64,000 nucleotides of DNA from Nemertoderma westbladi (taxonomy: Eukaryota; Animalia; Xenacoelomorpha), in NCBI GenBank assembly GCA_032718475.1, contig JAUCBJ010007659.1, positions 1 to 64,000 on the forward strand, read 5' to 3'. The notes under the pieces were generated by a model that saw only the letters and a list, made by a program, of their open reading frames with translations, made no database searches and was not told where the DNA came from. Position 1 is the first letter of the stretch. Each line of letters begins with the position of its first letter. Shown piece by piece: positions 3,133 to 29,124 of this stretch. A program made the position numbers and the translations under genes.

Positions 3133-4484
3133 AGAAACATAATGGAGTGTTTTACTGTGGAAGATCACCCATGATGGTGAACAGGCATTCCTTTAGGAAA
3201 CAGTGGAAGGGGTGTACTGTGGAGGATCACCCATGGTGGTGAACAGGCATTCAATTAGGAAACAGAGTGGAAGGGTTTACTGTGGAAGATCACCCATGAT
3301 GGTGAACAGGCATTCCGTTAGGAAACAGAGTGGAAGGGGTTTACTGTGGAAGATCACCCATGGTGGTGAACAGGCATTCATTTAGGAAACAGAGTGGAAG
3401 GGTTTACTGTGGAAGATCATCCATGGTGGTGAACAGGCATTCATTTAGGAAACAGAGTGGAAGGGTTTACTGTGGAAGATCACCCATGGTGGTGAACAGG
3501 CATTCATTTAGGAAACAGAGTGGAAGGGTTTACTGTGGAAGATCACCCATGATGGTGAACAGGCATTCCGTTAGGAAACAGAGTGGAAGGGTTTACTGTG
3601 GAAGATCACCCATGATGGTGAACAGGCATTCCGTTAGGAAACAGAGTGGAAGGGGTTTACTGTGGAAGATCACCCATGGTGGGGAACAGGCATTCATTTA
3701 GGAAACAGAGTGGAAGGGTTTACTGTGGAAGATCACCAATAATGGTGGTGAACAGGCATTCTTTTAGGAAACAGAGTGGAAGGATTTACTGTGGAAGATC
3801 AACCATGTTGGTGAACAGGCATTTATTTGGGAAACAGAGTGGAAGGGTTTACTGTGGAAGATCACTCATGGGGGGTGAACAGGTATTCCTTTAGGAAACA
3901 GAGTGGAAGGGTTTACTGTGGAAGATCATCCATGGTGGTGAACAGGAATTCCTTTAGGAAACAGAGTGGAAGGGTTTACTGTGGAAGATCACCCATGGTG
4001 GTGAACAGGCATTCATTTAGGAAACAGAGTGGAAGGGTTTACTGTGGAAGATCCTCCATGGTGGTGGACAGACATTCCTTTAGAAACATAGAGGAAGGGT
4101 TTACTGTGGAAAATCACCCATGGTGGTGAACAGGAATTCCTTTAGGAAACAGAGTGGAAGGGTTTACTGTGGAAGATCACCCATGATGGTGAACAGGCAT
4201 TCCGTTAGGAAACAGAGTGGAAGGGTTTACTGTGGAAGATCACCCATGATGGTGAACAGGCATTCCGTTAGGAAACAGAGTGGAAGGGGTTTACTGTGGA
4301 AGATCACCCATGGTGGTGAACAGGCATTCATTTAGGAAACAGAGTGGAAGGGTTTACTGTGGAAGATCACCAATAATGGTGGTGAACAGGCATTATTTTA
4401 GGAAACAGAGTGGAAGGATTTACTGTGGAAGATCAACCATGCTGGTGAACAGGCATTTATTTGGGAAACAGAGTGGAAGGGTTT
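3133..4484 (+). repeat. 63-bp satellite, left part (about 21 units)
   Basis: Unit GGAAACAGAGTGGAAGGGTTTACTGTGGAAGATCACCCATGGTGGTGAACAGGCATTCCTTTA. Confidence 0.95.
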
Positions 4485-4536
4485 TGTTACGGTATATGGC
4501 GCTGTATCCACATTATTAGCCATTATGCAGTATAAT

Positions 4537-4624
4537 ATATTAGTCCGTTATACTGTACGCAATATTAGTCCGTTATACTGTACGCAATATTAGTCCGTTA
4601 TACTGTACGCAATATTAGTCCGTT
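4537..4624 (+). repeat. 25-bp tandem repeat (about 3.5 copies) at the start of the LTR
   Basis: TAGTCCGTTATACTGTACGCAATAT starts at 4541, 4566 and 4591, with a partial copy at 4616. The same array is present in the 3' LTR. Confidence 0.9.
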
Positions 4625-4945
4625 GTGCAGCATAATATTTTAGATAAGGCATAATAGCGCAGTGATATTTAGATAGGGAAATCGAAACGCCCATATATTT
4701 TGAATCCATCCATTTTGTATAGTATGTAGCCCTACCTACGTAATTTTGTAATAGGATATAGGTAGATAGTTCCAGGGTAGCAAGTTTAGTCGGACCCTGG
4801 ATTTTGTGCTTGCTGTTATTAGCTTTGATAGGGCTAGATATAGGGACGCTGTCCTGGCCATTCAGCAGCCAGGGACATGATCCATTACCATATATGGTAA
4901 TAATTTGAGGTTTGGGGAGCAATAGGGCTACAATCCGGCCTCCTT

Positions 4946-5054
4946 ATTGGACTAACTGCTTCCAGGTTGGTCTAATGCTAGCGCGGACTGGAGAGCCAAT
5001 AGGAGAGCGATTGAGTCACCCTATTGCATCACCCCATTCGGATCACCTATAAAT
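4946..5054 (+). promoter_or_regulatory. Putative LTR Pol II promoter (CCAAT boxes and TATA box)
   Basis: ATTGG at 4946, CCAAT at 4996 and TATAAAT at 5048-5054 are spaced as in a typical core promoter. The transcription start is inferred, not observed. Confidence 0.55.
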
Positions 5055-5657
5055 TGGCGGTTTGCCGGTAGAGCTGCACACCCTTACAACCAACCTTAAC
5101 CTCAGTACCAATCTCAATCCTCTGTAGGTGTACAGTTAGAAGTATAATTTTGCGTATTTCTGCAATTTGCTAAATTTTGATTAATTTCTTGAGATGATTT
5201 GCTAGTGCTATTATTCTCGATTGCGTTTCTCAATTAATCCTATCGATTACTGCTAATTACAATCGGAACTATGATTTCTACCCCTTTTGTTAATGGTTCT
5301 ATGTGATTCCTTTCTACGCAATAATCCTAAGGGATTTCTGAGACTGTCAGAATTTGTGATTTTGCATGCGCCGCTACGGTAGCTATTCAATTAAATGAAG
5401 GGCTAAGGTGCCAGTAGGCGGTGGGCGCATCGGGGGGTTGGGCGACTAAGGGAGAGCGGAGGATTCAAAGGCGGGCAACGCTGGCGGGGGTCAACGTTGT
5501 GGTAGGGCAGTTTGGACTGTGAGTTGGAGACCGCTCGCCGGTACAGTAATTAGGGGGCTGATGATCCAAGGTTTTGTCTCTATTTAGTATTAGGGGGGCA
5601 GGAATTGGGTTAGTTAGGAAGCCTAGATGTACCCGGGAGGGGCCTGCATACCTCACA

Positions 5658-5691
5658 GTAAGTAAGTAAGTGGGTAAGTACGTAAGTAAGT
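5658..5691 (+). promoter_or_regulatory. Cluster of six GTAAGT 5' splice-site (U1-binding) motifs in the LTR
   Basis: GTAAGT at 5658, 5662, 5666, 5674, 5682 and 5686. Confidence 0.6.
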
Positions 5692-5916
5692 TGCGAATTA
5701 TATAATTGCAGATTGTATAATTGCAAATCGTGCTATTTGTGATCTGTGATTGCTGACGCTGATTGGTGTGTTACTGAAGTGTGCCTATGATTACGAATGC
5801 TTAGGTAGGCGCCCCTTTTCTTTGATTGATTTCTATTTCTTAGTTACTACAAATAATTACTGATTAGGTCAAAGTAATACGGCAATTTAGGCTATTACTA
5901 GCGAAACCTGTTGTGT

Positions 5917-6099
5917 AATAAATTAGAATTACGCATTCTGGAACTCTTAGTAATTAGTGCGCTGTTACATATTTGTGACTGTAATTGATTAGTAAAATTA
6001 AGAATTAGTACGCAGCATAGCGGAGAGTAGCTAAGGTAATAAATTAGAGTACCGTAAACTATTCACGCTAGGCGGTTATTTGCATTAGCGGGCAATAAA
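5917..6099 (+). terminator. Candidate polyadenylation signals in the LTR
   Basis: AATAAA at 5917, 6038 and 6094, and at the equivalent positions (+16992) in the 3' LTR. Which one is used is unknown. Confidence 0.4.
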
Positions 6100-6736
6100 C
6101 TAGATCGCAATAGTCAGTACGCAAGACACTAGTGAATTGCTGGCCTAAAGCCAGCTGCAGGCAAGTTTAGACCCGGAGTGGTATCACCCACGAAAGACAT
6201 TGTACTGTACCAATTTTGATTATTTTAAATATTCTCGCATTCACACATTCCGTTAGGGAACGCCCAGTATTCGCGGTTAGAAAAGACGTAAGCATTAGTG
6301 TACTTCAATAAGTGGTAAAATTAGGCGTAAGAATACTCTGAGTGCAAAGCCCCTCGCACTCGTCTTAAGTAAGCTTAGGGAGCCGACTCGGGTTTATTGT
6401 TTTGGTTATTCCCGTGTGGCTCATAGATTCGAACAGTTAGCTCTCTATCGAGTGATCGGTAGAGAAAGGAACAAGCGATTTTGCAGGAGTTGTGTAAAAT
6501 TAGTAAAATATATTAGCGGACGGCAGATTAGCGCCATCCAACGGTAAGTAGCGGTTTTGTATTTAGCAGCCTTTACAATTTAGTAATGGCACGCTCCTGA
6601 TCCCCTTTACTTAACAGTAGAGCAGTCTTTGTGTCTTATTGGTTAGGCGAGAGCTCATTAGGTTGGCAGAGAGGTATACGGGTATTTGTCTGTTCAACAG
6701 TTCTGCTGTTAGTATAGGTGTCGCGGTTGTTTATCA

Positions 6737-6748
6737 GTGAGGTATGCA
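6737..6748 (+). promoter_or_regulatory. Primer-binding-site position, non-tRNA type (GTGAGGTATGCA), complementary to LTR 5645-5656
   Basis: Directly abuts the 5' LTR end and lacks the TGG complement of the tRNA CCA end. It is the exact reverse complement of TGCATACCTCAC at 5645-5656 and 22637-22648. Confidence 0.6.
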
Positions 6749-8023: not shown

Positions 8024-11000
8024 ATGAGTGTCTCAGACAAAGAAGCACTAGAGGACAGCTATGAGACGGCGGCTGGACCGCCGACTGACGATAGCGTAAA
8101 TATTACTGTTGACGACAATGCCGACTATGACGACGCAGCGAGCGACGCTGACGTAAGTGAACAGGAGGACGAGACAGTGACTAGTGAGGAAGAACAACAA
8201 CCTCAAGTAATAGTATTAGGATCCCCTACCGCTACTGTAGGGAAGGATTGTACAGCAACCCAACCAGAGGTGAGTGATAGGGAGGGTAGTGTAGCAGAAG
8301 CGAGAGCCCGGAGCCCGGTTTCCAGACCTGTGGGTATGGTAAGTGCCGTGGTCCCGACGGCTGTAAGGAGTACCCGTAGTTCCCGAAATAATCCTTCAAG
8401 TCCACCGAGTGTGAGTCAGGTAAGCGAGAGAGAACTAGACATCGCGATAAAGAAGAAACTTCGCGCGCATGCCGGACATATAACTCGGACGGCGGACAAG
8501 GTAAGGAAGATGTTAGCTGACTCAGCGAACATCGGGAGGGTAGAGTTAGTAGAGATTAGAAGAGGATATAACTCAGCGTTATTCAAGCAGACGGAGGAGC
8601 TTGCAGTCCTAGCGAAGAAGGCAGTAGAGTCTCAGTCGAGCGACGTGGCGACGAGGATTTACGACAGGGTTTTAGCAGCCTTGTTGGAGCACCACGAGTT
8701 ATCGGAGCGATTCCGACGAGGTAGGACGGAGAACTGGCTGCTATGGGCATCACAAGCGCAGGCGACTCAAGTGAGTGACGCAGCGTTGAGAGACTTAGTG
8801 GAGCGAGAAGAGATCCAAGACAAAGAAGAGCGCCGTTATCAGAGGGAAGTTACTAGCTGGCTGATGCAGAATGGAGTGGTGGTACCGGGTCAGGTGCTAC
8901 CGACGACGGAGAACATTCAACAGAGGACGTTAACTCCACCCGACGATGCATCCAGAGACAGCGGCGATTCCCAGGTTAGTCACGCGCGAGGTAAGGTTAT
9001 ATGTGCTAGATCCCTTGTTTCGCACAACTCGGCGGAGGAGAGAAGACGCCGACTGGACGAACAACAGGCGGAAGTTTTGCGTGCATCGGAAGCACGGAAG
9101 GAAGCCGAGCGGGAACGGGAGCGCACACGTAAGTTGGACGCGGAATTGCGAGAGTTGGAAGAGATAAGTAAGCGCGAGCGAGCGGAACGCGAGCAAAGGG
9201 AACGCGAACTCCAAGCCGAGCGCGTGCGCGAGGAACTCGAACGCGAACAGAGAGAACGCGAACTCCAACTTGAATGCGAACGGGAAGCGAAGAAATGCGA
9301 ACTCCAACTCGAACGCGAACAGGAAGCGAAGAAACGCGAACTCCAAGCCGAACGCGAACGCAAGAAACTCGATCGTGAACAGAAGGAGCGCAAGCTTCAA
9401 CTCGAACGCGGACGCAAGGAACGCGAACTCGAGATCGAAAAAAGAAGACGCGCATTGTATGAAGAAAAGGAGCGTGTGGAAGAAGAGAGCGCAGCGAGAC
9501 GAGCGAGGGAAGAAGAAGAACGTAAACTGGCGCAGTTGGAAAGTGCGAGATTAAGTTTAGAGAGCGAAGAACGGACTAGGAAGGCGAACGAAATCGCCGA
9601 GAAGGGGATGCGAATGATCGAAGAATGTGGGGCGAGTATAGGGACAGAGTTGCGAGAACTGTTCGCACTGCAGAAGGCCGAACAGGAAGCGAGAACTCCG
9701 ACTATACGCGAGTCGACAACAACCAGAATTCCTATACCCGGTCCAGCTATTACGAGTACACGGATCGCTAAACCGTTCTCTACATATCGCACGCCAGTTG
9801 GTATTAGTGCTTCACCCATCGCCCAGGATCCACGTCATCGGAACACCGCTCCTAAACTCGATCGTGAACAGAAGGAGCGCGAGCTTCAACTCGAACGCGC
9901 ACCACTATACACCGCACCACTATACACCGAACGAGAGAACGAAGAATTTAGAGGAGAAATTCCAACGGGACGAGTATTGGGCGAACCGAACCCGCGGGTT
10001 TGGAATACGCGGACGGAGCGCCAACCCAGTTCGACGGAGAACTTCCGGGTTAAACCGGAAGAGGGATCATATGAGAGACATCGGATTACTCAGATAGAGC
10101 CGACTATACAACAGAACCCTAGCCAGGAATTTATTACGAGGGATGAGTTAAGTGCTAGTTTAGCGCAAGCTATATCGCCACACATCCAACCTATAACGGA
10201 CATGCTTAGCAACCTACGGTTAAAGGAAGCAGCCCAGGTAAGAAGTAATTCAAATCCTAGCAGGCCTGAGTCAGATAAAGTCCAGCCTAGTCAACGAGTA
10301 CGCATATCGGAGGAGACTATACCACGTAGACCTCAGGTAAGGACGCCTGTCCCGAATATTCATAATCCCAATTTCGAAAACTCAGCCGAGAAATTTATTG
10401 AGGAAGCTTGGGTCAGGGCCTCGGCACGCAAACCATTGCGAGCACTAAGGACTGACACCGAGTCAAGCGATGAAGAGGAAGACATGAGACGTCAGAAGTC
10501 CCGAAACTATAAGGAAAGAAGGACGGACGCGGAGCAGGTAAGTTTGAACCACCGGGAAAGGAACAGACTTAACAACCCTGCGGAACTAAACCATTTGTTA
10601 ACCCGGAACAACGCAACCCTTAGGGACATAGGTAAGTTTGCTGCTAGGCAAGGACTGCCGACGCAACAACCCCAGAAGTTTATGGGCAACCATAAACACT
10701 GGAGGACCTTCAAAACCTATGTCGACGAGCAGCTAACCAACAGCACCTTTACTCCCAACGAGAAGTTCAACTATTTGCTTCAGATGCTCCATCGAGAACC
10801 TAGAGCCATTGCTGATAACTTCGTCGGCAACGAAAGAGCATTCGAGTTAGCGATGAAGACGCTTAGCAACATCTACGGGAATAAAACGAAGATGGCGCAG
10901 TCGATAGTAGAAGACTTGGGTAAGGGCGGAAGGATTACAACTCCGTTAGAGCTGTTGAACTTAGCGAACGCTATTTCGAACGCATTGGACATCTTGAGGA

Positions 11001-14000
11001 CGGTGAATCTACCTCATCATGGTGATCACGCCGAAGTTTTAAAGAGTGTAATAAGACGTTTAAACATGCGTTATCGACAGAAATGGCGCAAATTAGAGAA
11101 TAAGTTGGAGGGTCAAGGTAAAGTATTGACACTTCAACACATTCATGACATGATAGCCACAGACGCAGTAGCAGAGATGAAATCAAACTTCTCAGAAGAG
11201 AATATGAGAGAGTCTAAACCTGTTACCGGTAAGTCTATGGTAAGTTTTGACGATGACAGGACCACTGTGACATTTAACTCAGTAGACAGATATAATTCGA
11301 ATACCCCAGCCTTTAGATCAGACTCGCGAGTATGGTCAGGTGAGCGGTTAGATAGACCTAGGTTAAAGCAACAGGAGTTGCCGGATGGATTTGTAGGTTG
11401 CCAATACTGTTTACTAAAGGAGGTAAGATCTGATGACCATAAGTTAGATAGTTGCAGACGGTTCAAAGAATTAAATTCGGAACAGAGAAGAGTTCAAGTG
11501 CGGACGTTGGACACCTGTTGGGCATGTCTTGCGCCAGGCCATGTACGGCGGCAGTGCCCGAACAGCAAGGACGGATGCATGGAATGCGGCAGACTACATC
11601 ACAAGTTGCTACATGCGGATTTCCATACCCCAACGGACCGTTACTTACAGCGAAATCCTCAAAGGAAGGGGAGCAAAGAACCCATATCGATAAGGAGGAA
11701 TACGTATACCGGCATTCAGGACGATGGTTACCAACCAGGTTCGTCGGACGAGGATGGCGAGTCGAGCGCGAGAGAAGTGACCTGCCAAGGTTTCACTGCG
11801 GATAGTTTATCGACCAGCGCGCGGACGTATTTATCATCGGCCACGTCGGAAATATTTAGCGTGATTCCGGTGAAACTCACTGGCGATAAGGGATCGAAGC
11901 GAATATATGTGATGTTGGACACTGCGTCCACATTATCTTATATCGACGAGGAAGTGGCGAGAGCTGTTTCTAGCTTCCAGGACGCCGAGGAGATCCAAAT
12001 AGAGTTGAAGTCTATGCATGGGGTAGGAGACCTCAAGGGACACAGAATTTCGGTAGAACGAGACTCCCTACTTCCGAGAGACCAACATACTCGACAAGAA
12101 CGAAAAGCTTTGCCATTGGACGGATTTAAGTGTCTAGCTATGAAGGGATTCGGCAGGCAGTTAGGTAAGGTGCCACCGATGAGTCCCATAGCACAGGAGT
12201 ATTTTGACAAGCTCAGGATACCCAGACACCAGGTAGGTTATAGGAATGTTTCTATGTTGATTGGTGCAGAACAGCTGATCGCACACCAGATATGGGAAAC
12301 GAGACCAGCTGAGCCGCATGTCAATGGACCACATGCCCATAGGACCATACTAGGTTGGTATACACGAGTACCCATGTCTTATGAGTTTACAGGTGGCGAC
12401 AAGCCGATGGACAGATACGACGAATTACAGCCTATAACTCAACCACCGTTAGTAAAACCACCAGACATAGACGAGTTTAGGAGAACCTGTATTGACCACT
12501 ATAGTGACTTTAGCGAGTCAGACGAGGAGTTGATTCCCGATAATGTTAGGTTGTCGGAACCACTTCATAACGACCGGACAGATAGTGAACCCGAGGACTA
12601 CTGTCATCAGACCCGTGGGTCTGGTTCAGCGGCCCACGCTACCTATTTGACTAACGTTTCGACTTATACAGACATAGTGGAGGGTCAAGTGGCTAAATAT
12701 CGAGACCTAGACATTTTCCAATACAGTGAGGAGGAATTACAGAAGGAATTGATACGCCAGGACCTCGAGACAGGAGCCAGAACCGTCGAATGGCTGGATA
12801 GGGACGCAATGGAACCCGGTGGATATGACCTAGCCATGTCCACTGACGAGAAACGGTCGCTGGAGATGATGGAAGATACCATACGTCTGCTACCGACAGG
12901 ACATTTTGAAGTTGGAATGTTGTGGCGTCGACAACCACCTAAGTTGGAGAACAACTACAACTTAGCCTTGAAAAGATTAAACGGAGTAAGGGCTCGGTTG
13001 TTGAATAATCCGGACATTAGGGAGAAGTATTGCGCCCAGATCAACAACTATTTTGCCAAGGGATTTGCTGGGAAGGTAGAGGACCCTGACTTAGTGACAG
13101 ACCAGACTTATTACCTTCCACACCACTATGTGACTCACCCTGACAAGCCAGACAAAGTCCGAGTAGTCAACGACTGCGCAGCAGTCTATAGAGGTATGTC
13201 CCTGAATTCAGAGTTGATGGATGGTCCCAACCTGAACAACTATTTGATTGGAATATTGTTGCGTTTTAGACAGCAGCGATTCGCATTTACTTGTGACATC
13301 GAGGCGATGTTCCACCAGGTAAGAGCCTGTAAGGCAGACCATGATAGCCTTCGCTTTCTCTGGTATGAGAATGAAGACTTATCCGGCCCAGTGGTTACAT
13401 ACCAGATGTACGTTAGGATATTTGGCGCCCGCGATAGTCCAAATGGCACGCTGTTTGTTCTAAAGAAAACGGCAACAGCCCAGATTGGTAAGTACCCAGT
13501 AGAGGTTATCGAGTCCATCTTGAGAAACTTCTACATGGACGACGGATTGGTGTCCAAGGACACGGCGGAACAAGCCATAGAAGGGGCTCACGGCCTGCAA
13601 GAGTGCTTGGCTACAGGGGGTTTTCCTCTGACCAAGTTCACTACAAACTCGGAGGCCCTATTAGAGTCGTTCCCAGTGAAAGATCGCGGGAGCGGAGACA
13701 TAGAATTGGGGGTAGAACCAATCCCCATGGCGCGAGTACTGGGACTCGCTTGGAACCCGAACTCAGACAAGTTCCAGGTAAGAGTTAGATTTGAGCCCAG
13801 TAGCCCAGACAAAGTTTTGACAAAGAGGATTTGCTTATCGACATTAAGTAGACTATTTGACCCGATGAACTTTATCAGTCCGGTTATATTACAGGCACGA
13901 GCGTGCATGAGGAAAATTTGGTTGTCCGACATAGAGTGGGACGAACCAATATCTCCTATACATGCAAAGCAGTGGAGGGAGTGGGAAGCCGAGTTACATC

Positions 14001-16507
14001 TATTGAAAAACATAGATGTACCCCGTTCCTACTTTCCGAATCAGCTGGTATTTCCAGCTGATCTCGAACTCCACCTATTTAGTGACGCAAGTGACACCGG
14101 CTTTGGTATGGTAGCCTACCTTCGCCGAGAGGTAAGTCAGGACAAATTTGAGACGGCCTTTGTGACTTCTAGATCAAAGACAATGCCAGTCAAATACATG
14201 ACTGTCCCTCGTGCAGAGTTACAGGCGGCTGTAGTTTCAGTCGAGGTAAGTAAGCAAATAACTGAGGAGTTAGACACGACATTGACCTTATTCTATTGGA
14301 CGGACGCATCCTTGGTGTTAGTATACATTGCGGCCGACAATATTGCACTAAAGACATTTGTGGCCAACAGACGCGCTCAGATCGTTGATTTTTCGACGAA
14401 GGAACAATGGAGACATTGTCCGGGAGTGTTAAACCCGGCCAACATAACTTCGAGAGGTGCAATGCCGGCGGAATTCTGTCAGGAAGAGTCGCAGGAGTTT
14501 TGGTTGCATGGACCTGATTTTCTAACGAGGACACAGGAACATTGGCCAGAGCGACTAAAGATTGTGACCAATCCGATGCCTGAAGATGCAGAAGTCAAAG
14601 TGGAGAAAGTCTCTAAGTCAAAGTCTAAAGCCAAACTTAAGTCATTGGAGCGGCCTGAAGAGTCATTGGAGCGGCCTGAAGAGTCATTGGAGCGGCCCGG
14701 AGACCTGTCAGACCAACAGACTTACGTGACTACTAGGTCCGGAAGGGTAAGTTATGATGTAAAACCACCCTTACAGACTAAACCGGAGTCACAATTGGTA
14801 AGTGACGGACAGAAAATGACTGACACAATGGATCCTTTGGTTTCCAAACCTGCGGGTTTGGATTAGAAACTTCCATTAATTAGCGGACAACCGTCGCTGG
14901 CATTAGAATCATGCAGTGTTTATGACAAATTACTAAATTCGTCTGCCTCTTGGCTGACAATTTGTAAAAGAACTGCGTGGTTAAACCGATACATTTCGTA
15001 CCTTTGTTTAAAACATTCGGAACATTTAGGAGAACCATCGAGCGCTAATAGTGAGCGAATTCAGAAATTGAAACAACCTCTGACAGAGGATGAGATTGAT
15101 CAAGCGGAATTAAAGCATTTGAAGCATTATCAAATGTGTGCCTTCCCTAAAGAATTCCATCTATTATCAGCTCAACGACCAGTTCTCTATAAACCCCTTA
15201 GAAAATGGAGTCCATTAATCCATAAGGGTTTGATTTGTCATAGATCGAGAATCCAGACTGTCGACATAAACTCACAGTTTCGGTTCCCAGTGATAATCCC
15301 TAGTCACCCAATAGAATTGCAAAGAGCGATTCTATGGGATATACACAAGAGGTTGGATCACGCGGGAAAGTTACACTGTTTGTCGGCAGCGAGACAGCGA
15401 TTCATTCTATTGCAGCCAAGCAGGGCAGTAGGCACTATGTACGACGCCTGTCTGGTTTGCAAGAGAGTGAACGCCAGAGTATTGGAACAGGAGATGGCTG
15501 AACTCCCGGAAGCGAGAGTGCAGGCATATGACCCACCCTTTACGAACACAGGGGTGGACTGTTTTGGTCTGATTGAGGCAAAGAGTGGACGGCTGACCCA
15601 CAAGCGATGGGGTCTGCTGCTGACATGTATGGCTAGTAGAGCCATACATATCGAGCGTGTGGCAGACATGTCGACCAAATCTCTGCTCCTGGCCTTGAAG
15701 AGATTTATGGCCAGGAGAGGACTAGTATAGGCGTTCTATTCCGATAAGGGTACAAACTTTGTCGGAGGGAATAGCGAGTTGAACGCCGCTCATAAAGCGG
15801 CACAGAATAAGGAAATTTCTGCAGCACTTTTGCCGCAACGAGTAGAGTGGAGATTTAATACTCCAGAAAGTCCTTGGAGAGGAGGAAGTTGGGAGCGTTT
15901 AGTTCGCTCTGTAAAGCAGGCCATTGCCAAAACATTGCCTGTGAACAAACAACTTACCGACGACGAACTGGTCACAGCTTTCATCGAAATCGAGCATACA
16001 TTAAACTCGAGGCCGATAGCTATGTTGCCAGACGGTGTTGCATTAACGCCGAATCATTTGCTAATGCAGAGTCCAGCATTTCTTGTGCCGGCATCAGAAC
16101 CCATTAGTGCCGACCTATATAGTCGTAAAAGCTGGAAGGTGACTCAATTAGTGGCGTACACATTCTGGGAATATTGGCGGGAATACTATCTTCCCACCAT
16201 ATCTACCAGAACAAAGTGGTACAAAACGGTTCGGAGTCTCCAAAGGGGAGATTACGTATTGATAACCGAGCCGATTGTCAAGAGAAAGTATTGGGAGACT
16301 GGAGTGATCTTGCACACACACCCAGACGTGCAAAACATAGTGCGCACAGTCACTGTGAAAATTAGGTGCAAGTGTCCACACCCAAAAAAGTGTAAAACTA
16401 ATGGTTTGCACACCTTGGACCGACCGGTCCAAGATATTGTGTTATTAGAGGAGACACGTATCGAGACGGGAGATTATAATTTGTCTCCTGCCTCAAAACA
16501 GAATTAG
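8024..16507 (+). CDS. BEL/Pao Gag-Pol polyprotein (coiled coil, Gag, 3 Cys/His motifs, protease, RT, RNase H, integrase) interrupted by two in-frame TAG codons
   Basis: ORFs 8024-14866, 15068-15730 and 15779-16507 share one frame. The sequence across the TAGs at 14864 and 15728 stays pol-like (SSASWLTICKRTAWLNRY; RRGLV*AFYSDKGTNFVGG). Motifs: Gag KFMGNHKHWRTF...EKFNYL; CQYC..H..C, CWAC..H..C, CMECGRLHHKLLH; protease LDTAS; RT FYMDD; RNase H FSDAS/RAEL/WTDAS; integrase H..H..CLVC, VDCFG, SDKGTNF, WERL. Confidence 0.93.
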
Positions 16508-17197
16508 TGTTGGACGCAACTCACTTCGTATGCATTCCTCGTATGCAGATACAAGGAAATGCATAGGAGCGGGTTGTGGTGATTTGCGTTGAGTTTTGTC
16601 TGGTGGGCATCAAAACAAAATTTTATTTTCAAAAATTTTTGGAAAATTAAAAAATTTTAAAATTAGAAGTAAACCCAAGACAATTCCAAACGCTGTGTAT
16701 AGACGCGTTTTAGAATTCGTCTATAGATAAACAGTAATTTGAAAGTCGTGAAGCCTGGAAAATAGCATTTAGAAACCATGGTGACGGCTATATTACGTAG
16801 GAGTGTAAATTGAGTTTAGCAACTTCCACAGATTGGTGCCAACAGTGCAACTAAGGTGCTAAAGGTTAGTAGCACCAGAGGCGTACATGGACCCCACTCA
16901 GTAGTTTGCAGTGATGTGTGATGTTCGATTATCAAACCTGTGGGTTTGGTATAGTCGAGTATTGTGGCTATAGTCCTTTCTAACTACTGTAGTTTAGTAC
17001 GAGTAATGGGAGTAGTTTGGGCATCAAAAAGTGAGTTGGTCACGGCCAGTTTATCTCCAAAGTTTTTGCGCTATGCATGGGAATAGGTTAGAGGTTAGTT
17101 AGTTAGGAAGAGACGGGATCTAGAGAGTCGAACCTGAACTGCTGGAAAGCGGGGGGGGGGGGGGGGGGGGTTCGGGAGGTCTGTCTTTCGGCAACAT

Positions 17198-17216
17198 CTA
17201 ACTGATTTACCCACAG
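17198..17216 (+). promoter_or_regulatory. Putative branch point and 3' splice acceptor for a subgenomic ORF2 mRNA
   Basis: CTAAC at 17198-17202 followed by TGATTTACCCACAG (AG at 17215-17216), 60 nt upstream of the ORF2 ATG. Confidence 0.45.
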
Positions 17217-17275
17217 TGTAATTGGTTACGTAACGGCACTTATTGGGATATATATATGTATATACGCGAGGCATA

Positions 17276-20200
17276 ATGGAGAAGGATATTAGAGCGCAAC
17301 CGCGCAGAGGATTTACTGCCAGAGAGGAGGCGGAGCTACCATTCGCGCGACCAGGATGTAAAGACTCTAACGTTTACTACCATGGGCGGTCCGTGATGGA
17401 GCTAAACGGAAAATACAAACCGACTTACGATAAGGAATTACGGAGGGAAAGAATGAGAGCGTTGGGGGACTGGATGGAAGTTTTGCGGAGAGAGTATCGC
17501 ACTCGGTATCCCTACGACTTCGCTTTGGACGTATGTGACATTAGTGCAGACCCGGATGAGGAGATCGCACGACTGTACCATATGAATATGTATTTACGAC
17601 ACGAAGAACCTCTACCTGCAGTCCGAGATCAGTTCGACGGAATGCATCTGTACCGGAGGACTCGAGGCGAGGATCAGGAGACGCCGAAAGTCTTCAGCGT
17701 GTACAAGCTGTTCTACAAGTGTGGTGAATGCATGAATAAGCAAGACGTGGCGATTCCCGACCGACTAGACGAGCAACATCCAGAACCGATATTAACGCGA
17801 TGTCCAGCTCACCAGTTCCTTAGATACAACGAGGGAGGTTACCCGATGAGCAACCCGATGATCAGTATCGACTTCAGCGGAAAGCGACCTCCGAGACCCA
17901 TTACGCCGACCGTTACGACATTAGATCCGTATACGGAGATTAAACCCTGTTCGACACCCAGTTTGATAGAGACGGCAGCGGCCATTTCGCTGTACCGAGC
18001 CTATAAGGATCTAGAGGCGCGGCGCGAAGCGGCACGGGACTCGGGTACCAAACCCGCGGGTTTGGAGCTCTCGAGTCCCTGGACTGCGTTTACTTCACCT
18101 CACCGAGCGAGAAGCCTCACGCCTGAGCATCAGGACGACATAGACGCGTTGCGGCAGGAGGAGCGAGCGGCGAAGGCGAAAGAGTTATTTGAGAATAGGA
18201 TAGCGGAGTATAATAAGGCCGCGGATAGACATCAAGAGGAGACGAGGAGAGTGACCGGATTTGTTCCACAGGTCGTATCTCAACCCCGACCGGTGTATTA
18301 TTCCGACGGCACCGAACCTGCGATATTAGTAGATCATCCGGAGTCGCGAGAAGCGATACGATTCTTGCCGATGGTAAGAATGGCGGATCATTGGAACGTT
18401 GACTGTCTACGGGAAGTTTTATGCGCGAAGTTCTTGCGTGATGTCCCAATGCAGATCACAGATTACGACACATTGGATAAGATTGGAGCTCCGGGGAAGG
18501 AGAGCAAATTATTTGGATGGTTGGATAAGTACATCAAGGTATGGGTCGCGGTGGCTACATTCCCAGACGACGAGGAGGTAGACCAGACGTGGCTGAGGAG
18601 GAAGGGTTCTTATACCCGATATGATGACCACAAGGCTATCGAGCGCATGTGGACCCCATCAGACGAGATTCAGCGTCAGTGGAGGAAAACGGAGGAATCA
18701 CTGCAGGATTGGAGGGTGATGTTCTACGACAATGAAGGAGGGTCCCATCAGGAATGTTTGACCAGCAAGTGTATTCAAATTCGTGCAGCCGATGGTGTGA
18801 CTCATGTGTTTATGCGTGTGAGGGCGGATCGAGAGAGACCGGAGCCCATCATAACGACACAATATCGGAAAGGGAAGGATCCTAGGGAGCAGATTTTGGA
18901 GGTATGCAGGCGAGGAGGTATGCACGGAGCGGAGCGTATCGACGCCAGGATGCTACCCAAGAAAGTTAGAGAGGCTATTCTCAACCAAGATTACGTCAAG
19001 GTGGGATCGGGAGTCCAGAGCGATTTGGAGAGCGACTTCAACGCCATGACTGATCTGGAAGATAGATTGCCGAGACCGTTTGTCGACACCAAGCTATTGT
19101 TGCTATGGGCACAGGATATTGGAATTTATAGGGAGTATCCCAACTCTGCCAAGACTGGTATGGGCTTTATAGCACACTTGTTGTATAATTGGGACTTTAA
19201 GTTAAAGACGCAGAAGAAGTACGAGGAGGCGTATGGCGAATACAACACGCCACCGGGAGCGGAGTTCAAATCCCACTTCAAGCGGCAAGCGTTAGTGTAT
19301 TGGAACATTTGCGCGCCACCCCGTGCGTCGCTACAATATTATTTGGTGCTTGAGTCGAACACGGTGACTTGTTTATTAGCGGATATCGTTGCGCGAGTTT
19401 TGAAGCGTCATCCATTGGTATTCGGAGGAGATCAATACGTTCGCTCGAAAGGGGGAATCCAATCCGACGTGATGAAGCGTTTCTTAACCCCGTTCTTCAA
19501 CCAATCGTTAGAGAATACGTCGATGGTTAGGAGAGGATTAGCGATATTCCAAGGAGTATATCGACAGAACATCGGAGATTTGGGAGACCGACCGTCGATG
19601 GAGTATCCGACGCCAGAGGCTTTGGAGAAGTGGTTCGGGAATCAAACCCGCGGGTTTGGTACTCCCTTCCACTCGGAGGCTGATAGACCTGTTAAGGAGG
19701 GCTGGCCGGAGACGTTAGTAGAGGTGTTCGGAGTAGATCTTCCGGTGGAGAAGACATATCCGAAACGAACGCGGGAGGAAATATTGGAGATAGAGGACAA
19801 GGGCGAGGATGTTTACTTTGTTCCGGATCGACAACCGCTGACCGGAGAGGACGACATCGTATTAGACATTGGGAAAGAAGGAAGTGCGAAACCGATTGGA
19901 GACCTCATATACGAGAGGGCCTGGTTTCCACAAGCGCGTAGGTGCAAGTTGTGCGGCAGCACAAGGCACAATCTAAAGTCGTGCGACGCGGTAGTAGAGG
20001 CGGCGCATAAGGTCTGTCGTTGGTGTAATGAGACCGACCATTCGTTTCACACGTGCACCGTCTTCATTTCTCAATGTGGATATTGTGGGGTAAAGGGACA
20101 TCGTAGCGCGAGATGTCAGCTGCGAGATGATTCCTTCCAAAACCATAGCGCTAACCTACTTCGGGAGATGTTAGATAAGTGGGAGAGTGTGGCTGACTAC

Positions 20201-20878
20201 CATATTCAAGCGCAGATGCGTTGGTTACCATTCAAGGCGGGGTATGGATTTTGGGCGGTAGACCCATCACATGTTGCGTACGAGCCATATCTACAGTCGC
20301 TACCACAATATCAGGAACTCATCCTAACTGCTCAAGACCTTCCACAAAACACTGGAGTTATCGTAGTCCGAGAATACTTCAGACAGTTGAATATGGATAA
20401 TAAGTACACCTGGAACTTCGTTGCTATTTGCGATCGAATCACGAAGGGTGTATTTTCGGAGACTAGAAAAGTGGTACGCGCGCGAGGTGATTGGAGAATG
20501 GCGGCTATACAATACCGCAACGAATTCTTGTTGACTCATGTGCCAGTGGGTTCATTGACCGCTGAGAGGATACAGGAGCAGAGGATCGCAGCGACCACAG
20601 CGACGACCGCTGGAGCTCAAGGCTCGCGGAAAGAACCAGGAGGAGGGGTCCAAGACAAGCGTCAAGTCAAGGACGACCACTATCACTCTATTATAGAAGC
20701 ACAGCGGTTGCAGCGCAAGGCGCAGGGAGCGTCAGAGAAGGCGCGTGTGCAACTGCATAAGGAAGAGTTGGCGGAAGCGACCACGGGAGCACGACAATTG
20801 GGACGAGGCCCGAGGGAGAAGCACGAGCCGGGAATCTGTCGGGGCTCAGGGAGCATCGTCTCCGGTTCCGGGGAGTGA
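17276..20878 (+). CDS. Retrotransposon ORF2 (about 1200 aa): DEDDy/WRN-like 3'-5' exonuclease domain plus three CCHC zinc knuckles
   Basis: Uninterrupted ORF between pol and the 3' LTR, first in-frame ATG at 17276. ExoI-like VMFYDNEG, then CIQI; ExoII-like LPKKVREAILNQDYVKVGSGVQSD; FVDT; KTGMGFIAHLLY; ExoIII-like YWN...P...LQYYLVLE. Knuckles: CKLCGSTRHNLKSC, CRWCNETDHSFHTC, CGYCGVKGHRSARC. Confidence 0.85.
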   Translation: MEKDIRAQPRRGFTAREEAELPFARPGCKDSNVYYHGRSVMELNGKYKPTYDKELRRERMRALGDWMEVLRREYRTRYPYDFALDVCDISADPDEEIARLYHMNMYLRHEEPLPAVRDQFDGMHLYRRTRGEDQETPKVFSVYKLFYKCGECMNKQDVAIPDRLDEQHPEPILTRCPAHQFLRYNEGGYPMSNPMISIDFSGKRPPRPITPTVTTLDPYTEIKPCSTPSLIETAAAISLYRAYKDLEARREAARDSGTKPAGLELSSPWTAFTSPHRARSLTPEHQDDIDALRQEERAAKAKELFENRIAEYNKAADRHQEETRRVTGFVPQVVSQPRPVYYSDGTEPAILVDHPESREAIRFLPMVRMADHWNVDCLREVLCAKFLRDVPMQITDYDTLDKIGAPGKESKLFGWLDKYIKVWVAVATFPDDEEVDQTWLRRKGSYTRYDDHKAIERMWTPSDEIQRQWRKTEESLQDWRVMFYDNEGGSHQECLTSKCIQIRAADGVTHVFMRVRADRERPEPIITTQYRKGKDPREQILEVCRRGGMHGAERIDARMLPKKVREAILNQDYVKVGSGVQSDLESDFNAMTDLEDRLPRPFVDTKLLLLWAQDIGIYREYPNSAKTGMGFIAHLLYNWDFKLKTQKKYEEAYGEYNTPPGAEFKSHFKRQALVYWNICAPPRASLQYYLVLESNTVTCLLADIVARVLKRHPLVFGGDQYVRSKGGIQSDVMKRFLTPFFNQSLENTSMVRRGLAIFQGVYRQNIGDLGDRPSMEYPTPEALEKWFGNQTRGFGTPFHSEADRPVKEGWPETLVEVFGVDLPVEKTYPKRTREEILEIEDKGEDVYFVPDRQPLTGEDDIVLDIGKEGSAKPIGDLIYERAWFPQARRCKLCGSTRHNLKSCDAVVEAAHKVCRWCNETDHSFHTCTVFISQCGYCGVKGHRSARCQLRDDSFQNHSANLLREMLDKWESVADYHIQAQMRWLPFKAGYGFWAVDPSHVAYEPYLQSLPQYQELILTAQDLPQNTGVIVVREYFRQLNMDNKYTWNFVAICDRITKGVFSETRKVVRARGDWRMAAIQYRNEFLLTHVPVGSLTAERIQEQRIAATTATTAGAQGSRKEPGGGVQDKRQVKDDHYHSIIEAQRLQRKAQGASEKARVQLHKEELAEATTGARQLGRGPREKHEPGICRGSGSIVSGSGE

Positions 20879-21476
20879 CGCCTTACGGACGCCGTCAACA
20901 GAGTCTACAGGAGGTAGACTGGTGTATCTGGGCAGGGGGCGAAAGAGAGGAGCGAGCCCGAAGAACCCAGGAGCGGGTCGATAATGCATCGTAGCACAGG
21001 GCGACAGACTCTAGATATATACATCATCGTCGCTCTGATGTATATTGTAGCATTTAGAAATATTCGACTAGACTCATATACACTAGTTGCGCTGTTTTGA
21101 ATTTATATTATGAGAAAGGCGAAGGAAGTGATTGGGGAGACAAACCTGCGGGTTTGGCTTACTCCTTTCACTTGCCCTAGCAAAATTTTTTATATTTGAT
21201 CTTGTATGTAGTAATCATTATGTAGTACGAACGAGAAACAATATTTTGTAAATTTAATTTGTATGTAATTATCGTTAAACAGTAAGAGAGATAATATTTG
21301 TAAATTTAATTTGTATGCAATTCATTATGCAATATCTATAGCAATATTTTGTAAATAGTAGGATTTATAGTATCAAGTATTTAGATTATTTGGAAGAAAT
21401 TTATTTTGTTTTGTATACATCACCTTATACTCTTCTACAGTTGGAGGGAAACATTATATGATTTCCCTTGGAGCGG

Positions 21477-23728
21477 TGTTACGGTATATGGCGCTGTATC
21501 CACATTATTAGCCATTATGCAGTATAATATATTAGTCCGTTATACTGTACGCAATATTAGTCCGTTATACTGTACGCAATATTAGTCCGTTATACTGTAC
21601 GCAATATTAGTCCGTTGTGCAGCATAATATTTTAGATAAGGCATAATAGCGCAGTGATATTTAGATAGGGAAATCGAAACGCCCATATATTTTGAATCCA
21701 TCCATTTTGTATAGTATGTAGCCCTACCTACGTAATTTTGTATTAGGATATAGGTAGATAGTTCCAGGGTAGCAAGTTTAGTCGGACCCTGGATTTTGTG
21801 CTTGCTGTTATTAGCTTTGATAGGGCTAGATATAGGGACGCTGTCCTGGCCATTCAGCAGCCAGGGACATGATCCATTACCATATATGGTAATAATTTGA
21901 GGTTTGGGGAGCAATAGGGCTACAATCCGGCCTCCTTATTGGACTAACTGCTTCCAGGTTGGTCTAATGCTAGCGCGGACTGGAGAGCCAATAGGAGAGC
22001 GATTGAGTCACCCTATTGCATCACCCCATTCGGATCACCTATAAATTGGCGGTTTGCCGGTAGAGCTGCACACCCTTACAACCAACCTTAACCTCAGTAC
22101 CAATCTCAATCCTCTGTAGGTGTACAGTTAGAAGTATAATTTTGCGTATTTCTGCAATTTACTAAATTTTGATTAATTTCTTGAGATGATTTGCTAGTGC
22201 TATTATTCTCGATTGTGTTTCTCAATTAATCCTATCGATTACTGCTAATTACAATCGGAACTATGATTTCTACCCCTTTTGTTAATGGTTCTATGTGATT
22301 CCTTTCTACGCAATAATCCTAAGGGATTTCTGAGACTGTCAGACTTTGTGATTTTGCATGCGCCGCTACGGTAGCTATTCAATTAAATGAAGGGCTAAGG
22401 TGCCAGTAGGCGGTGGGCGCATCGGGGGGTTGGGCGACTAAGGGAGAGCGGAGGATTCAAAGGCGGGCAACGCTGGCGGGGGTCAACGTTGTGGTCGGGC
22501 AGTTTGGACTGTGAGTTGGAGACCGCTCGCCGGTACAGTAATTAGGGGGCTGATGATCCAAGGTTTTGTCTCTATTTAGTATTAGGGGGGCAGGAATTGG
22601 GTTAGTTAGGAAGCCTAGATGTACCCGGGAGGGGCCTGCATACCTCACAGTAAGTAAGTAAGTGGGTAAGTACGTAAGTAAGTTGCGAATTATATAATTG
22701 CAGATTGTATAATTGCAAATCGTGCTATTTGTGATCTGTGATTGCTGACGCTGATTGGTGTGTTACTGAAGTGTGCCTATGATTACGAATGCTTAGGTAG
22801 GCGCCCCTTTTCTTTGATTGATTTCTATTTCTTAGTTACTACAAATAATTACTGATTAGGTCAAAGTAATACGGCAATTTAGGCTATTACTAGCGAAACC
22901 TGTTGTGTAATAAATTAGAATTACGCATTCTGGAACTCTTAGTAATTAGTGCGCTGTTACATATTTGTGACTGTAATTGATTAGTAAAATTAAGAATTAG
23001 TACGCAGCATAGCGGAGAGTAGCTAAGGTAATAAATTAGAGTACCGTAAACTATTCACGCTAGGCGGTTATTTGCATTAGCGGGCAATAAACTAGATCGC
23101 AATAGTCAGTACGCAAGACATTAGTGAATTGCTGGCCTAAAGCCAGCTGCAGGCAAGTTTAGACCCGGAGTGGTATCACCCACGAAAGACATTGTACTGT
23201 ACCAATTTTGATTATTTTAAATATTCTCGCATTCACACATTCCGTTAGGGAACGCCCAGTATTCGCGGTTAGAAAAGACGTAAGCATTAGTGTACTTCAA
23301 TAAGTGGTAAAATTAGGCGTAAGAATACTCTGAGTGCAAAGCCCCTCGCACTCGTCTTAAGTAAGCTTAGGGAGCCGACTCGGGTTTATTGTTTTGGTTA
23401 TTCCCGCGTGGCTCATAGATTCGAACAGTTAGCTCTCTATCGAGCGATCGGTAGAGAAAGGAACAAGCGATTTTGCAGGAGTTGTGTAAAATTAGTAAAA
23501 TATATTAGCGGACGGCAGATTAGCGCCATCCAACGGTAAGTAGCGGTTTTGTATTTAGCAGCCTTTACAATTTAGTAATGGCACGCTCCTGATCCCCTTT
23601 ACTTAACAGTAGAGCAGTCTTTGTGTCTTATTGGTTAGGCGAGAGCTCATTAGGTTGGCAGAGAGGTATACGGGTATTTGTCTGTTCAACAGTTCTGCTG
23701 TTAGTATAGGTGTCGCGGTTGTTTATCA
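21477..23728 (+). repeat. 3' LTR (2252 bp)
   Basis: Direct copy of 4485-6736, followed by the TSD GGTTT. Confidence 0.97.
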
Positions 23729-28440: not shown

Positions 28441-29124
28441 TTTGATCTGACCTGGATCATTGATCTGACCTGGGTCATAGATCTGACCTGGGTCATTGAT
28501 CTGTCCTGGGTTATTGATCTGACCTGGGTTATTGATCTGACCTGGGTCATTGATCTGACCTGGGTCATTGATCTGACCTGGGTCATTGATCTGACCTGGG
28601 TCATTGATCTGATCTGGGTCATTGATCTGACCTGGGTCATTGATCTGACCTGGGTCATTGATCTGACCTGGATCATTGATCTGAACTGGATCATTGATCT
28701 GACTTGGGTCATTGATCTGACCTGGGTCATTAATCTGACATGGGTTATTGATCTGACCGGGATCATTGATCTGACCGGGATCATTGATCTGACCTGGATC
28801 ATTGATCTGACGGTGATCTGACCTGGATCATTGATCTGACCTAGATCATTGATCTGAGCGGGATCATTGATCTGACCTGGGTCATTGATCTGACCTGGGT
28901 CATTGATCTGACCTGCTTCATTGATCTGACCTGGATCATTGATCTGACCTGGATCATTGATCTGACCTGGGTCATTGATCTGACCTGGGTAATTGATCTG
29001 ACCTGGGTCATTGATCTGACATGGGTCATTGATCTGACCTGGGTCATTGATCTTACCTGGGTCATTGATCTGACCTGGGTCATTGATCTGACCTGGGTCA
29101 TTGATTTGACCTGGGTCATTGATT
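28441..29124 (+). repeat. 18-bp minisatellite (about 38 units)
   Basis: Unit ATTGATCTGACCTGGGTC. Confidence 0.95.

What the first reader, a model, noticed from the sequence alone, without database searches (positions are those of the whole stretch)
17276..20878. BEL/Pao retrotransposon carries a 1200-aa extra ORF with a DEDDy (WRN/EXD/Mut-7-like) 3'-5' exonuclease and three CCHC knuckles instead of env
Seen: an intact ORF between integrase and the 3' LTR, inside the TSD-bounded element, with no signal-peptide- or transmembrane-like stretch. At about 18710-19380 it has the ordered motifs FYDNEG (D 18728, E 18734), CIQI, LP..VREAIL..DYVKVGSGVQSD (D 19022), FVDT, GMGFIAHLLY and W...P....QYYLVLE. 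Three CX2CX4HX4C knuckles follow at 19943-20116. Established: this order matches ExoI/II/III of DnaQ-like DEDDy nucleases such as WRN-exo, EXD2 and Mut-7/Nibbler, and CCHC knuckles bind single-stranded nucleic acid. The ExoIII Asp appears here as Glu. Inference: this is an element-encoded RNA/DNA trimming enzyme that could mature the primer, proofread for RT, or counter piRNA silencing, since host Mut-7/Nibbler/EXD1 act in small-RNA pathways. I do not know of this cargo as a standard BEL/Pao feature, but cannot search to confirm novelty.
Basis: partly seen in the sequence, partly recalled or inferred. Interest (0 to 1): 0.92.

Follow-up and report, generated by a model that had tools for sequence, protein, structure and literature searches.

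The report
Self-priming retrotransposon carries RNA-trimming exonuclease
A young jumping gene of the BEL/Pao type carries, where an envelope gene can sit, a conserved extra gene predicted to encode an end-trimming nuclease with three zinc grips for RNA, and a 12-letter self-pairing suggests the element primes its own copying, a step the nuclease may help finish.

Summary
Confirmed. An intact 1200-aa ORF (17276-20878) lies between integrase and the 3' LTR of a young, TSD-bounded BEL/Pao element (4485-23728). Pfam misses it. Ten unnamed relatives share an exonuclease-plus-knuckle layout; one has lost the motifs. The family profile hits EXD2 (E 3.5e-4), and the predicted fold matches DnaQ-like nucleases (Nibbler Z 10.7, WRN 9.9). 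Acidic residues hold all four metal-binding positions, the last as Glu rather than Asp. The ORF recurs in other copies and is under purifying selection (28 of 38 listed variants are synonymous; 11.5 expected).

Not new in kind: DEDDy third ORFs were described in rotifer LTR elements in 2017. Not found in my searches: a BEL/Pao host, an EXD2/WRN-type domain there, and fusion to knuckles as in trypanosome RNase D.

Added here: the 12 nt after the 5' LTR are the exact complement of LTR 5645-5656, the Tf1 self-priming signature. The likeliest job is trimming single-stranded RNA 3' ends, with the element's own primer as first candidate. Activity, expression and target are untested.

The parts
4480..4484 (+). 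left target-site duplication GGTTT (right copy 23729-23733), inside a 63-bp satellite
4485..6736 (+). 5' LTR, 2252 nt, TG..CA, 8 mismatches to the 3' LTR (0.36%)
5645..5656 (+). predicted self-primer: exact complement of the 12 nt after the LTR; inferred 5' end of the RNA
5658..5691 (+). six overlapping GTAAGT hexamers (splice-donor-like) starting 1 nt after the self-primer; candidate cut site or knuckle-binding tail
   Evidence: role inferred
5917..6099 (+). three AATAAA hexamers (5917, 6038, 6094) downstream of the self-primer, as expected if R starts near 5645
   Evidence: inferred
6737..6748 (+). primer-binding-site position: no TGG start; pairs with 5645-5656
8024..16507 (+). BEL/Pao gag-pol in one frame (gag, protease DTAS, RT YMDD, RNase H, integrase); in-frame stops at 14864 and 15728 in this copy
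17198..17216 (+). candidate branch point and splice acceptor 60 nt before the ORF3 start codon
   Evidence: chance 0.024 in shuffles; inferred
17276..20878 (+). ORF3, 1200 aa, intact
17276..18598 (+). ORF3 N-terminal 441 aa: no match found; the relatives (514-734 aa) have no counterpart; a variant in 3 studies removes about 109 codons in frame
18650..19435 (+). [quoted passage not shown]
19943..20116 (+). three CX2CX4HX4C zinc knuckles
20117..20320 (+). conserved helical module after the knuckles, shared by the relatives; no named family
21470..21476 (+). short purine-rich run at the polypurine-tract position
21477..23728 (+). 3' LTR

Best explanation
This BEL/Pao retrotransposon carries a third gene, conserved among its copies, that is predicted to encode a 3'-5' exonuclease of the EXD2/WRN type joined to three zinc knuckles, which likely grips a single-stranded RNA tail and trims it back to a duplex, most likely the element's own predicted self-primer. 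SHOWN: the intact ORF inside the element; its presence in other copies; purifying selection; acidic residues at the four metal-binding positions; and a perfect 12-bp complement between the first bases after the LTR and LTR 5645-5656. PREDICTED: the DnaQ-like fold. INFERRED: (1) the RNA starts at about 5645 and its 5' end anneals at 6737-6748, as in Tf1; (2) the RNA is opened a few bases downstream, in the GUAA-repeat stretch 5657-5691, leaving an unpaired 3' tail; (3) the knuckles bind that tail and the exonuclease shortens it to C5656, which pairs with the base next to the LTR end, so reverse transcriptase can start; (4) ORF3 is made from a spliced RNA using the acceptor at 17216. My odds by layer: fold 0.97; catalytically active 0.65; RNA substrate if active 0.75; own primer or own RNA as the main target about 0.35 overall.
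For: Fold: the family profile hits EXD2 at E 3.5e-4, WRN at 0.056 and Egalitarian at 0.4. A profile of relatives alone hits EXD2 at 0.011. The Atlas gives a PF01612 cluster at 0.91 (family on 50% of members). Foldseek's top 10 rows are all EXD2. VIA-align gives diDNase Z 10.9 (rmsd 4.6, 169 aligned), Nibbler 10.7 (4.2, 180), WRN 9.9 (3.4, 155), RNase D 9.7 (4.7, 166) and T. brucei RNase D 9.3 (4.3, 172). Active site: ExoI DxE in 7 of 7 relatives with a recognisable ExoI block, ExoII D in 9 of 10 relatives, ExoIII acid in all 8 readable relatives (6 D, 2 E). A block scan puts ExoI at D485 (score 7.4 against 2.6 next) and strands 2-3 at G507 (2.8 against -4.2). Selection: 28 of 38 listed variant sites are synonymous against 11.5 expected, p 4e-8, pN/pS about 0.15. 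RNA substrate: exonuclease plus C-terminal CCHC fingers is the layout of T. brucei RNase D, whose fingers hold single-stranded RNA while the nuclease trims (PMC7797062). Self-priming: 0 of 100 LTR shuffles gave 11 nt or more; expected 6e-5; only 3 of 14,729 internal 12-mers have a complement in the LTR, and one starts at the first base after it. Eleven of the 12 pairs have probability 0.99 or more in a transcript from 5645. This meets the published criterion (PMC6317226).
Against: There is no assay, and no transcript evidence for ORF3, its splice sites or the start at 5645. Tf1 makes its self-primer by an RNase H cut between bases 11 and 12, without an exonuclease (PMC7175516). Earlier notes of this scan describe self-priming BEL/Pao elements in at least 5 other genomes, and the 8 summaries shown mention no exonuclease (unchecked). 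So self-priming may not need this gene, and the co-occurrence rests on one family. ExoIII is YxxxE, not the canonical YxxxD. The ExoI register is not unanimous: 28 of 35 automatic MAFFT runs, failed to place D485 on the relatives' Asp, and those inspected put a basic stretch there instead. I chose an alignment with D485 in register for the fold. The model is middling (mean pLDDT 51.8, 8 sequences). The 12-bp helix is lost in a fold starting at 5400. No listed variant fell in aa 480-600, so the catalytic codons were not tested one by one. The genomic context of all ten relatives is unknown.
Confidence: 0.38

Rival explanations
1. The exonuclease is active but aimed at host small RNAs (piRNA/siRNA or their tails), which it would over-trim to blunt silencing of the element.
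For: The closest folds include Nibbler (Z 10.7) and EXD1 (Z 8.9). PMC5408684 entertains a silencing role. The family appears to have many copies in organism A, with thousands of contigs at 80-100% identity. Earlier notes list Rrp6-like or DEDDh third ORFs in gypsy elements (unchecked), which suggests a benefit not tied to one priming mode.
Against: No host-targeting domain such as MUT7-C was found. Z scores within 1 are tied, so Nibbler is not singled out. No small-RNA data were available.
Confidence: 0.25
2. The domain is a catalytically weak or dead RNA-binding adaptor, like EXD1, Maelstrom or Egalitarian, that would carry, protect or localise the element's RNA.
For: ExoIII is Glu. The alternative alignment register removes both ExoI acids. 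Relative P0001 has lost the motifs and duplicated the knuckle module. Egalitarian-RNA complexes are among the fold hits. EXD1 and Maelstrom are inactive DEDD derivatives (PMC5408684).
Against: Acids are kept at all four positions across relatives only about 21-32% identical. E-INS-i, hhalign and the block scan agree on D485/E487.
Confidence: 0.2
3. It acts on DNA: proofreading for reverse transcriptase or cleaning cDNA 3' ends before integration.
For: WRN, diDNase and family A polymerase proofreading domains score Z 9-11. Dada DNA transposons carry a DEDDy domain proposed to process cleaved 3' ends (PMC3706591).
Against: It is a separate ORF, not fused to pol. The knuckles best match the RNA binders Lin28, nucleocapsid and TbRND.
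Confidence: 0.12
4. It is a captured passenger without function for the element.
For: Rotifer env-like and GDSL third ORFs showed mostly neutral variation within one genome (PMC5408684).
Against: pN/pS is about 0.15. The gene has no introns. A deletion variant seen in three studies keeps the frame. No host gene with this layout was found.
Confidence: 0.03

Closest known systems
DEDDy-exonuclease ORF3 of bdelloid rotifer LTR retrotransposons Juno and Vesta, and of Athena/Terminons (Rodriguez et al. 2017, PMC5408684)
   Same: A DnaQ-like 3'-5' exonuclease as a separate non-env third ORF after pol, with no membrane segments and unknown function.
   Different: The host element here is BEL/Pao, not Juno/Vesta. 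The changed acid differs: there DEDD is written as DEED, here the last Asp is Glu. Here the ORF is 1200 aa and fused to three CCHC knuckles, and purifying selection is seen. Sequence kinship could not be tested.
Trypanosoma brucei RNase D, TbRND (PMC7797062; PDB 7C42/7C45)
   Same: DEDD exonuclease followed by C-terminal CCHC fingers; fold match Z 9.3; knuckle match E 6e-4.
   Different: TbRND is a cellular enzyme with four fingers after a 28-aa linker and prefers uridine. Here there are three knuckles after about 170 aa, and the nuclease sequence is nearer EXD2/WRN.
EXD2 / WRN exonuclease / Nibbler (Mut-7) cellular nucleases
   Same: Fold, the ExoII context K-V-G-x-G-x-x-x-D and the order of motifs.
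   Different: Only 10-15% identity in structural alignments; none of their extra domains; ExoIII Glu.
Tf1/Tf2/Tj1 and the Tf1/sushi group: self-primed reverse transcription (PMC7175516, PMC4600332, PMC6317226)
   Same: The primer-binding site directly after the LTR is complementary to a stretch within the LTR, with no tRNA-type start.
   Different: Reported for Ty3/gypsy chromoviruses and some plant copia lineages. The ICTV profile gives tRNA-Arg/Gly priming for BEL/Pao (PMC8742986). Tf1 uses an RNase H cut and has no exonuclease. Here primer and binding site are about 1080 nt apart.
Belpaoviridae (BEL/Pao, Semotivirus; PMC8742986)
   Same: LTRs, gag-pol domain order, and Pao-type Pfam domains.
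   Different: 19.2 kb with 2.25-kb LTRs, against 4.2-10 kb and 0.2-1.2 kb in the profile. The third gene is a nuclease, not env-like.

Membership tests
BEL/Pao LTR retrotransposons (Belpaoviridae) | LTRs with TG..CA ends and a target-site duplication | tested here: met
BEL/Pao LTR retrotransposons (Belpaoviridae) | gag then protease-RT-RNase H-integrase, with Pao-type domains | tested here: met
   DUF1759 E 3e-9, Peptidase_A17 E 3e-39, Integrase_H2C2, DUF5641 E 1e-17; motif order
BEL/Pao LTR retrotransposons (Belpaoviridae) | placement in an RT tree | not tested
   no reference RT set was fetched; two searches found no related loci
BEL/Pao LTR retrotransposons (Belpaoviridae) | tRNA-Arg/Gly primer-binding site (typical per ICTV profile) | tested here: inconclusive
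   no TGG start after the LTR and a self-complement instead, but host tRNAs were not available
DnaQ-like 3'-5' exonuclease superfamily | DnaQ-like fold | tested here: met
   (predicted model, mean pLDDT 51.8)
DEDDy exonucleases (canonical) | ExoI DxE on the first core strand | tested here: met
   D485/E487 by E-INS-i, hhalign and block scan; only 7 of 35 automatic MAFFT runs agree
DEDDy exonucleases (canonical) | ExoII Asp | tested here: met
   D583 is invariant in alignment A3 and aligns with the EXD2/WRN Asp
DEDDy exonucleases (canonical) | ExoIII YxxxD | tested here: not met
   Y689-x-x-x-E693; Glu in 2 and Asp in 6 of 8 readable relatives. Filed as a DEDDy-like variant, not canonical DEDDy
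DEDDy exonucleases (canonical) | two-metal 3'-5' exonuclease activity | not testable with these tools
   needs an assay
EXD2, WRN or Mut-7/Nibbler orthologue groups | orthology by tree or by shared extra domains | tested here: inconclusive
   top Z scores are tied within 1; no Pfam match for their extra domains; no tree built
Rotifer Juno/Vesta DEDDy ORF3 pool | sequence kinship with the rotifer ORF3s | not testable with these tools
   sequences not available in session
Rotifer Juno/Vesta DEDDy ORF3 pool | DEED motif | tested here: not met
   here D-E-D-E
Tf1-type self-priming | LTR stretch complementary to 10 nt or more starting 0-5 nt after the 5' LTR | tested here: met
   12 of 12 nt starting at the first base (criterion)
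Tf1-type self-priming | transcript starts at the complementary stretch and is cut right after it | not testable with these tools
   needs 5'-end mapping and particle RNA

The most novel reading that the evidence does not exclude
A BEL/Pao lineage has replaced tRNA priming with a two-part system of its own. Its RNA 5' end anneals next to the LTR and is opened at the splice-donor-like GUAAGU repeats 1 nt further on (by an aborted first splicing step or early termination). An element-encoded knuckle-guided exonuclease then trims the tail to a perfectly paired primer. This would be a dedicated primer-maturation nuclease, and would give a function to the exonuclease cargo genes of LTR retrotransposons.
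Probability: 0.2. Interest if true: 0.88.

Novelty: new variant of a known kind. Interest (0 to 1): 0.62.

Why it matters
Exonuclease third ORFs in LTR retrotransposons have been known since 2017, and in the papers I read they still have no demonstrated function. This case extends them to BEL/Pao and defines an unnamed exonuclease-plus-knuckle protein family. It shows purifying selection, which the rotifer study did not find for the two ORF3 types it sequenced (env-like and GDSL). It also supplies a concrete candidate substrate, the self-primer and its tail, that can be tested with a purified domain and short RNAs. The element also points to tRNA-independent priming in a group described as tRNA-primed.

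Tried and rejected
Profile libraries: Pfam gave 0 families for the whole ORF and for the exonuclease and N-terminal parts. NCBIfam gave nothing useful. phmmer of the domain against PDB gave only rotavirus VP4 (E 0.009), rejected as chance because profile and fold searches point elsewhere. The single-sequence fold was useless (pLDDT 32.7).

Homologue searches: the word-based search found nothing for the ORF or for alignment A1 and one new protein for A4. It missed known members, so its blanks mean little.

Genomic context of relatives could not be obtained. There were no confirmed loci in viral contigs, metagenome contigs (36, 74), prokaryote genomes (96) or phages (87). No whole genome is held.

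Expression: no RNA holder listed. X4 is only guessed to be RNA and was not used as evidence of expression. Summed depth over ORF3 is about half that over pol in X1 and X3, but the tool states this is no copy number, so I did not use it.

Other negatives: no Rfam match in 4000-24000; no tRNA gene in the window. ORF3 knuckles are not a copy of the element's gag knuckles (no significant BLAST match). I checked by eye whether an intron builds the primer, as in earlier notes: joining at the donor after 5657 would not extend the pairing. The N-terminal 441 aa had no Atlas or PDB hit, which shows neither novelty nor absence. The knuckle and C-terminal module were barely tested by the fold search.
Full report
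THE ELEMENT. A self-comparison found two 2252-nt repeats, 4485-6736 and 21477-23728. They have TG..CA ends and 8 mismatches (0.36%), and are flanked by GGTTT on both sides. The insertion splits a 63-bp satellite. The gag-pol frame 8024-16507 carries DUF1759, Peptidase_A17, Integrase_H2C2 and DUF5641, with protease, RT and RNase H motifs in order: a BEL/Pao element. At 19.2 kb with 2.25-kb LTRs it is about twice the sizes in the ICTV profile (PMC8742986, whole text read). This copy has two in-frame stops in pol. The host is unknown; BEL/Pao is described as metazoan only (PMC3601003, passages).

THE OBSERVATION. ORF 17276-20878 is open for 1200 codons, 768 nt after pol and 598 nt before the 3' LTR. 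Confirmed.

A PROTEIN FAMILY. Pfam and NCBIfam do not recognise the ORF. A full HMMER scan of 1.84 billion representatives returned 8 proteins (E 4e-11 to 6e-4, 25-32% identity, 514-727 aa). A cluster look-up and a later search added 2 more. All are unnamed or 'hypothetical'. They share one layout: a nuclease-like domain, a variable linker, knuckles and a conserved helical module. None has a counterpart of the N-terminal 440 aa. P0001 has lost the nuclease motifs, and P0005/P0009 are cut before ExoI. A profile of seven relatives alone scores the window's ORF at 72 bits over aa 554-716. I could not read their contigs, so whether they sit in BEL/Pao or other elements is open.

THE FOLD. The domain profile matched EXD2 (E 3.5e-4), WRN (0.056, 0.065) and Egalitarian (0.4), aligning the family's DxE, VGS...D and YxxxD with theirs. 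The Atlas gave a PF01612 cluster at 0.91, a lead only. AlphaFold2 on aa 401-1030 with 7 relatives gave mean pLDDT 51.8, with 118 residues at 70-90. D485/E487 fall on the first core strand, and Y689/E693 on the long helix. Foldseek ranked EXD2 in rows 1-10 (E about 1e-3, probability 0.97-1.0). VIA-align against 48,161 chains gave 27 with Z 8 or more, headed by diDNase 10.9 (rmsd 4.6, 169 aligned), Nibbler 10.7 (4.2, 180), WRN 9.9 (3.4, 155), RNase D 9.7 (4.7, 166), RRP6 9.3 (5.5, 176) and T. brucei RNase D 9.3 (4.3, 172). The top viral hit was a Pandoravirus 3'-5' exonuclease. The superfamily is clear; the subfamily is not, though the sequence evidence leans to EXD2/WRN.

IS IT ACTIVE? ExoI DxE is present in 7 of 7 relatives with a recognisable ExoI block, and ExoII D in 9 of 10. 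The ExoIII acid is present in 8 of 8 readable relatives, 6 as Asp and 2 as Glu like the window. Against this, the default MAFFT alignments put a basic stretch (aa 513-518) on ExoI, and only 7 of 35 automatic runs placed D485 there. E-INS-i and hhalign place D485 on ExoI. An ungapped block scan prefers D485 (7.4 against 2.6) and the strand 2-3 block at G507 (2.8 against -4.2). The confusion comes from an insertion after strand 3, where P0007 also has one. I used an alignment in this register for the fold, so the model does not independently prove it. I put activity at 0.65.

FAMILY FEATURE AND SELECTION. Six public runs from 4 studies hold the ORF or part of it; one may be the window's source. 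Contigs cover all 30 bins of the ORF in X1, X2 and X3, and 19 of 30 in X6. Contigs join the spacer to the ORF start, the ORF end to the 3' leader, and pol to ORF3 in a deleted derivative. The tool showed the best-supported 40 of 244 variant sites. I dropped 2 outside the ORF. Of the other 38, 28 are synonymous against 11.5 expected from the same substitution spectrum (p 4e-8; pN/pS about 0.15), and 6 of the 10 changes lie in the last 20 codons. Five of the 9 small indels listed lie in the 75 nt before the start. Of the 4 inside the ORF, 3 occur only in X6 and 1 is about 23 codons from the end. A common deletion keeps the frame. The gene is thus a maintained part of the family.

A SELF-PRIMING SIGNATURE. 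The bases after the 5' LTR do not begin with TGG. The 12 nt 6737-6748 are the exact reverse complement of 5645-5656. None of 100 LTR shuffles reached 11 nt, and the expected number is 6e-5. Only 3 of 14,729 internal 12-mers have a complement in the LTR, and one starts at the first base after it. In a transcript from 5645 or 5600 the helix forms with probability 0.99 or more for 11 of 12 pairs; it is weaker from 5000 and absent from 5400. The primer's 3' base pairs next to the LTR end, the right geometry for minus-strand synthesis. This meets the criterion used in PMC6317226 (passages) and parallels Tf1 and Tj1 (PMC7175516 and PMC4600332, passages). Three AATAAA follow downstream. Six GTAAGT hexamers start 1 nt after the primer. 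I found this before looking at earlier notes. Those notes then showed 17 similar findings in at least 5 genomes (unchecked, not independent support).

MECHANISM. T. brucei RNase D joins a DEDD exonuclease to C-terminal CCHC fingers that hold single-stranded RNA during trimming, a combination its authors call very unusual (PMC7797062, abstract and passages). The knuckles here best match Lin28, nucleocapsid and that enzyme. That such nucleases stall at duplexes is recalled, not tested. The simplest reading is an RNA 3'-tail trimmer. The only element-specific clue to its target is the self-primer with a repetitive tail behind it, so I commit to primer or own-RNA trimming at 0.38. The rivals are counter-silencing 0.25, dead RNA adaptor 0.2, DNA-end work 0.12 and passenger 0.03. 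A branch-point and acceptor motif at 17198-17216 (chance 0.024) suggests a spliced message; this is inferred only.

WHAT IS KNOWN. Rodriguez et al. 2017 (PMC5408684; abstract to discussion read, plus figure legends; figures and supplement not seen) describe DEDDy third ORFs in rotifer Juno and Vesta and in Athena/Terminons, with motif DEED, no activity shown, and no mention of priming. Later reviews cite this (PMC6431247 and PMC6338049, passages). Dada DNA transposons carry a DEDDy domain (PMC3706591, passages). The BEL/Pao survey PMC3118150 has no occurrence of 'exonuclease' in its main text (passages; supplements not opened). PMC13524379 has none either. Searches listed no paper on an exonuclease ORF in BEL/Pao. 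Searches listed none on self-priming in BEL/Pao. For papers not named here I saw the listings only, and Repbase, Dfam and subscription journals were out of reach. Earlier notes record Rrp6-like or DEDDh third ORFs in gypsy elements, so nuclease cargo recurs.

VERDICT. A real, selected accessory gene: a new variant of a known kind. It has a different host clade, an unnamed nuclease-knuckle family, a DEDE motif and a candidate substrate.

Noticed in passing
   Followed up: yes
window 5658-5691: Six overlapping GTAAGT hexamers in 34 nt directly after the predicted primer (20 in all from 4485 to 21476). They may be splice donors, U1 sites or a protein-binding tail.
   Followed up: partly
window 6732-6746 and 6832-6846: A 15-nt sequence spanning the LTR end and the primer-binding site, with a donor-like GAGGTATG, is repeated exactly 100 nt downstream. 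Low-depth contigs in X1 and X3 skip about this interval or carry other letters after the LTR.
   Followed up: partly
window 14864-14866 and 15728-15730: Two in-frame TAG stops in pol. Contigs of all four runs differ from the window at the second, so it looks private to this copy. The first is not among the 40 rows shown, so it may be private or a family-wide readthrough site.
   Followed up: partly
window 17151-17170: A run of 20 G in the pol-ORF3 spacer.
   Followed up: no
window 17256-17278: A six-codon upstream ORF whose stop overlaps the ORF3 start codon (TAATG); other copies have small indels here.
   Followed up: no
window 17421-17751: A variant present in runs of three studies replaces 329 nt by 2 nt, an in-frame loss of 109 codons that leaves the nuclease intact.
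   Followed up: partly
window 17720-17812 (ORF3 aa 149-179): CxxC...CxxH spacing, a possible zinc site in the unmatched N-terminal part.
   Followed up: no
window 3151-4484, 23729-25737, 33671-37125, 26724-28213, 28442-29123, 39088-41904, 52077-62009: The window is mostly satellite arrays (63, 31, 18, 36 and 24 bp); the element split a 63-bp array.
   Followed up: partly
window 48786-50595 (-): Fragment of a non-LTR-type reverse transcriptase (RVT_1, E 1e-9) with a perfect triple 350-bp duplication.
   Followed up: partly
protein P0001: A relative that has lost the nuclease motifs and carries the knuckle-plus-helical module twice.
   Followed up: no
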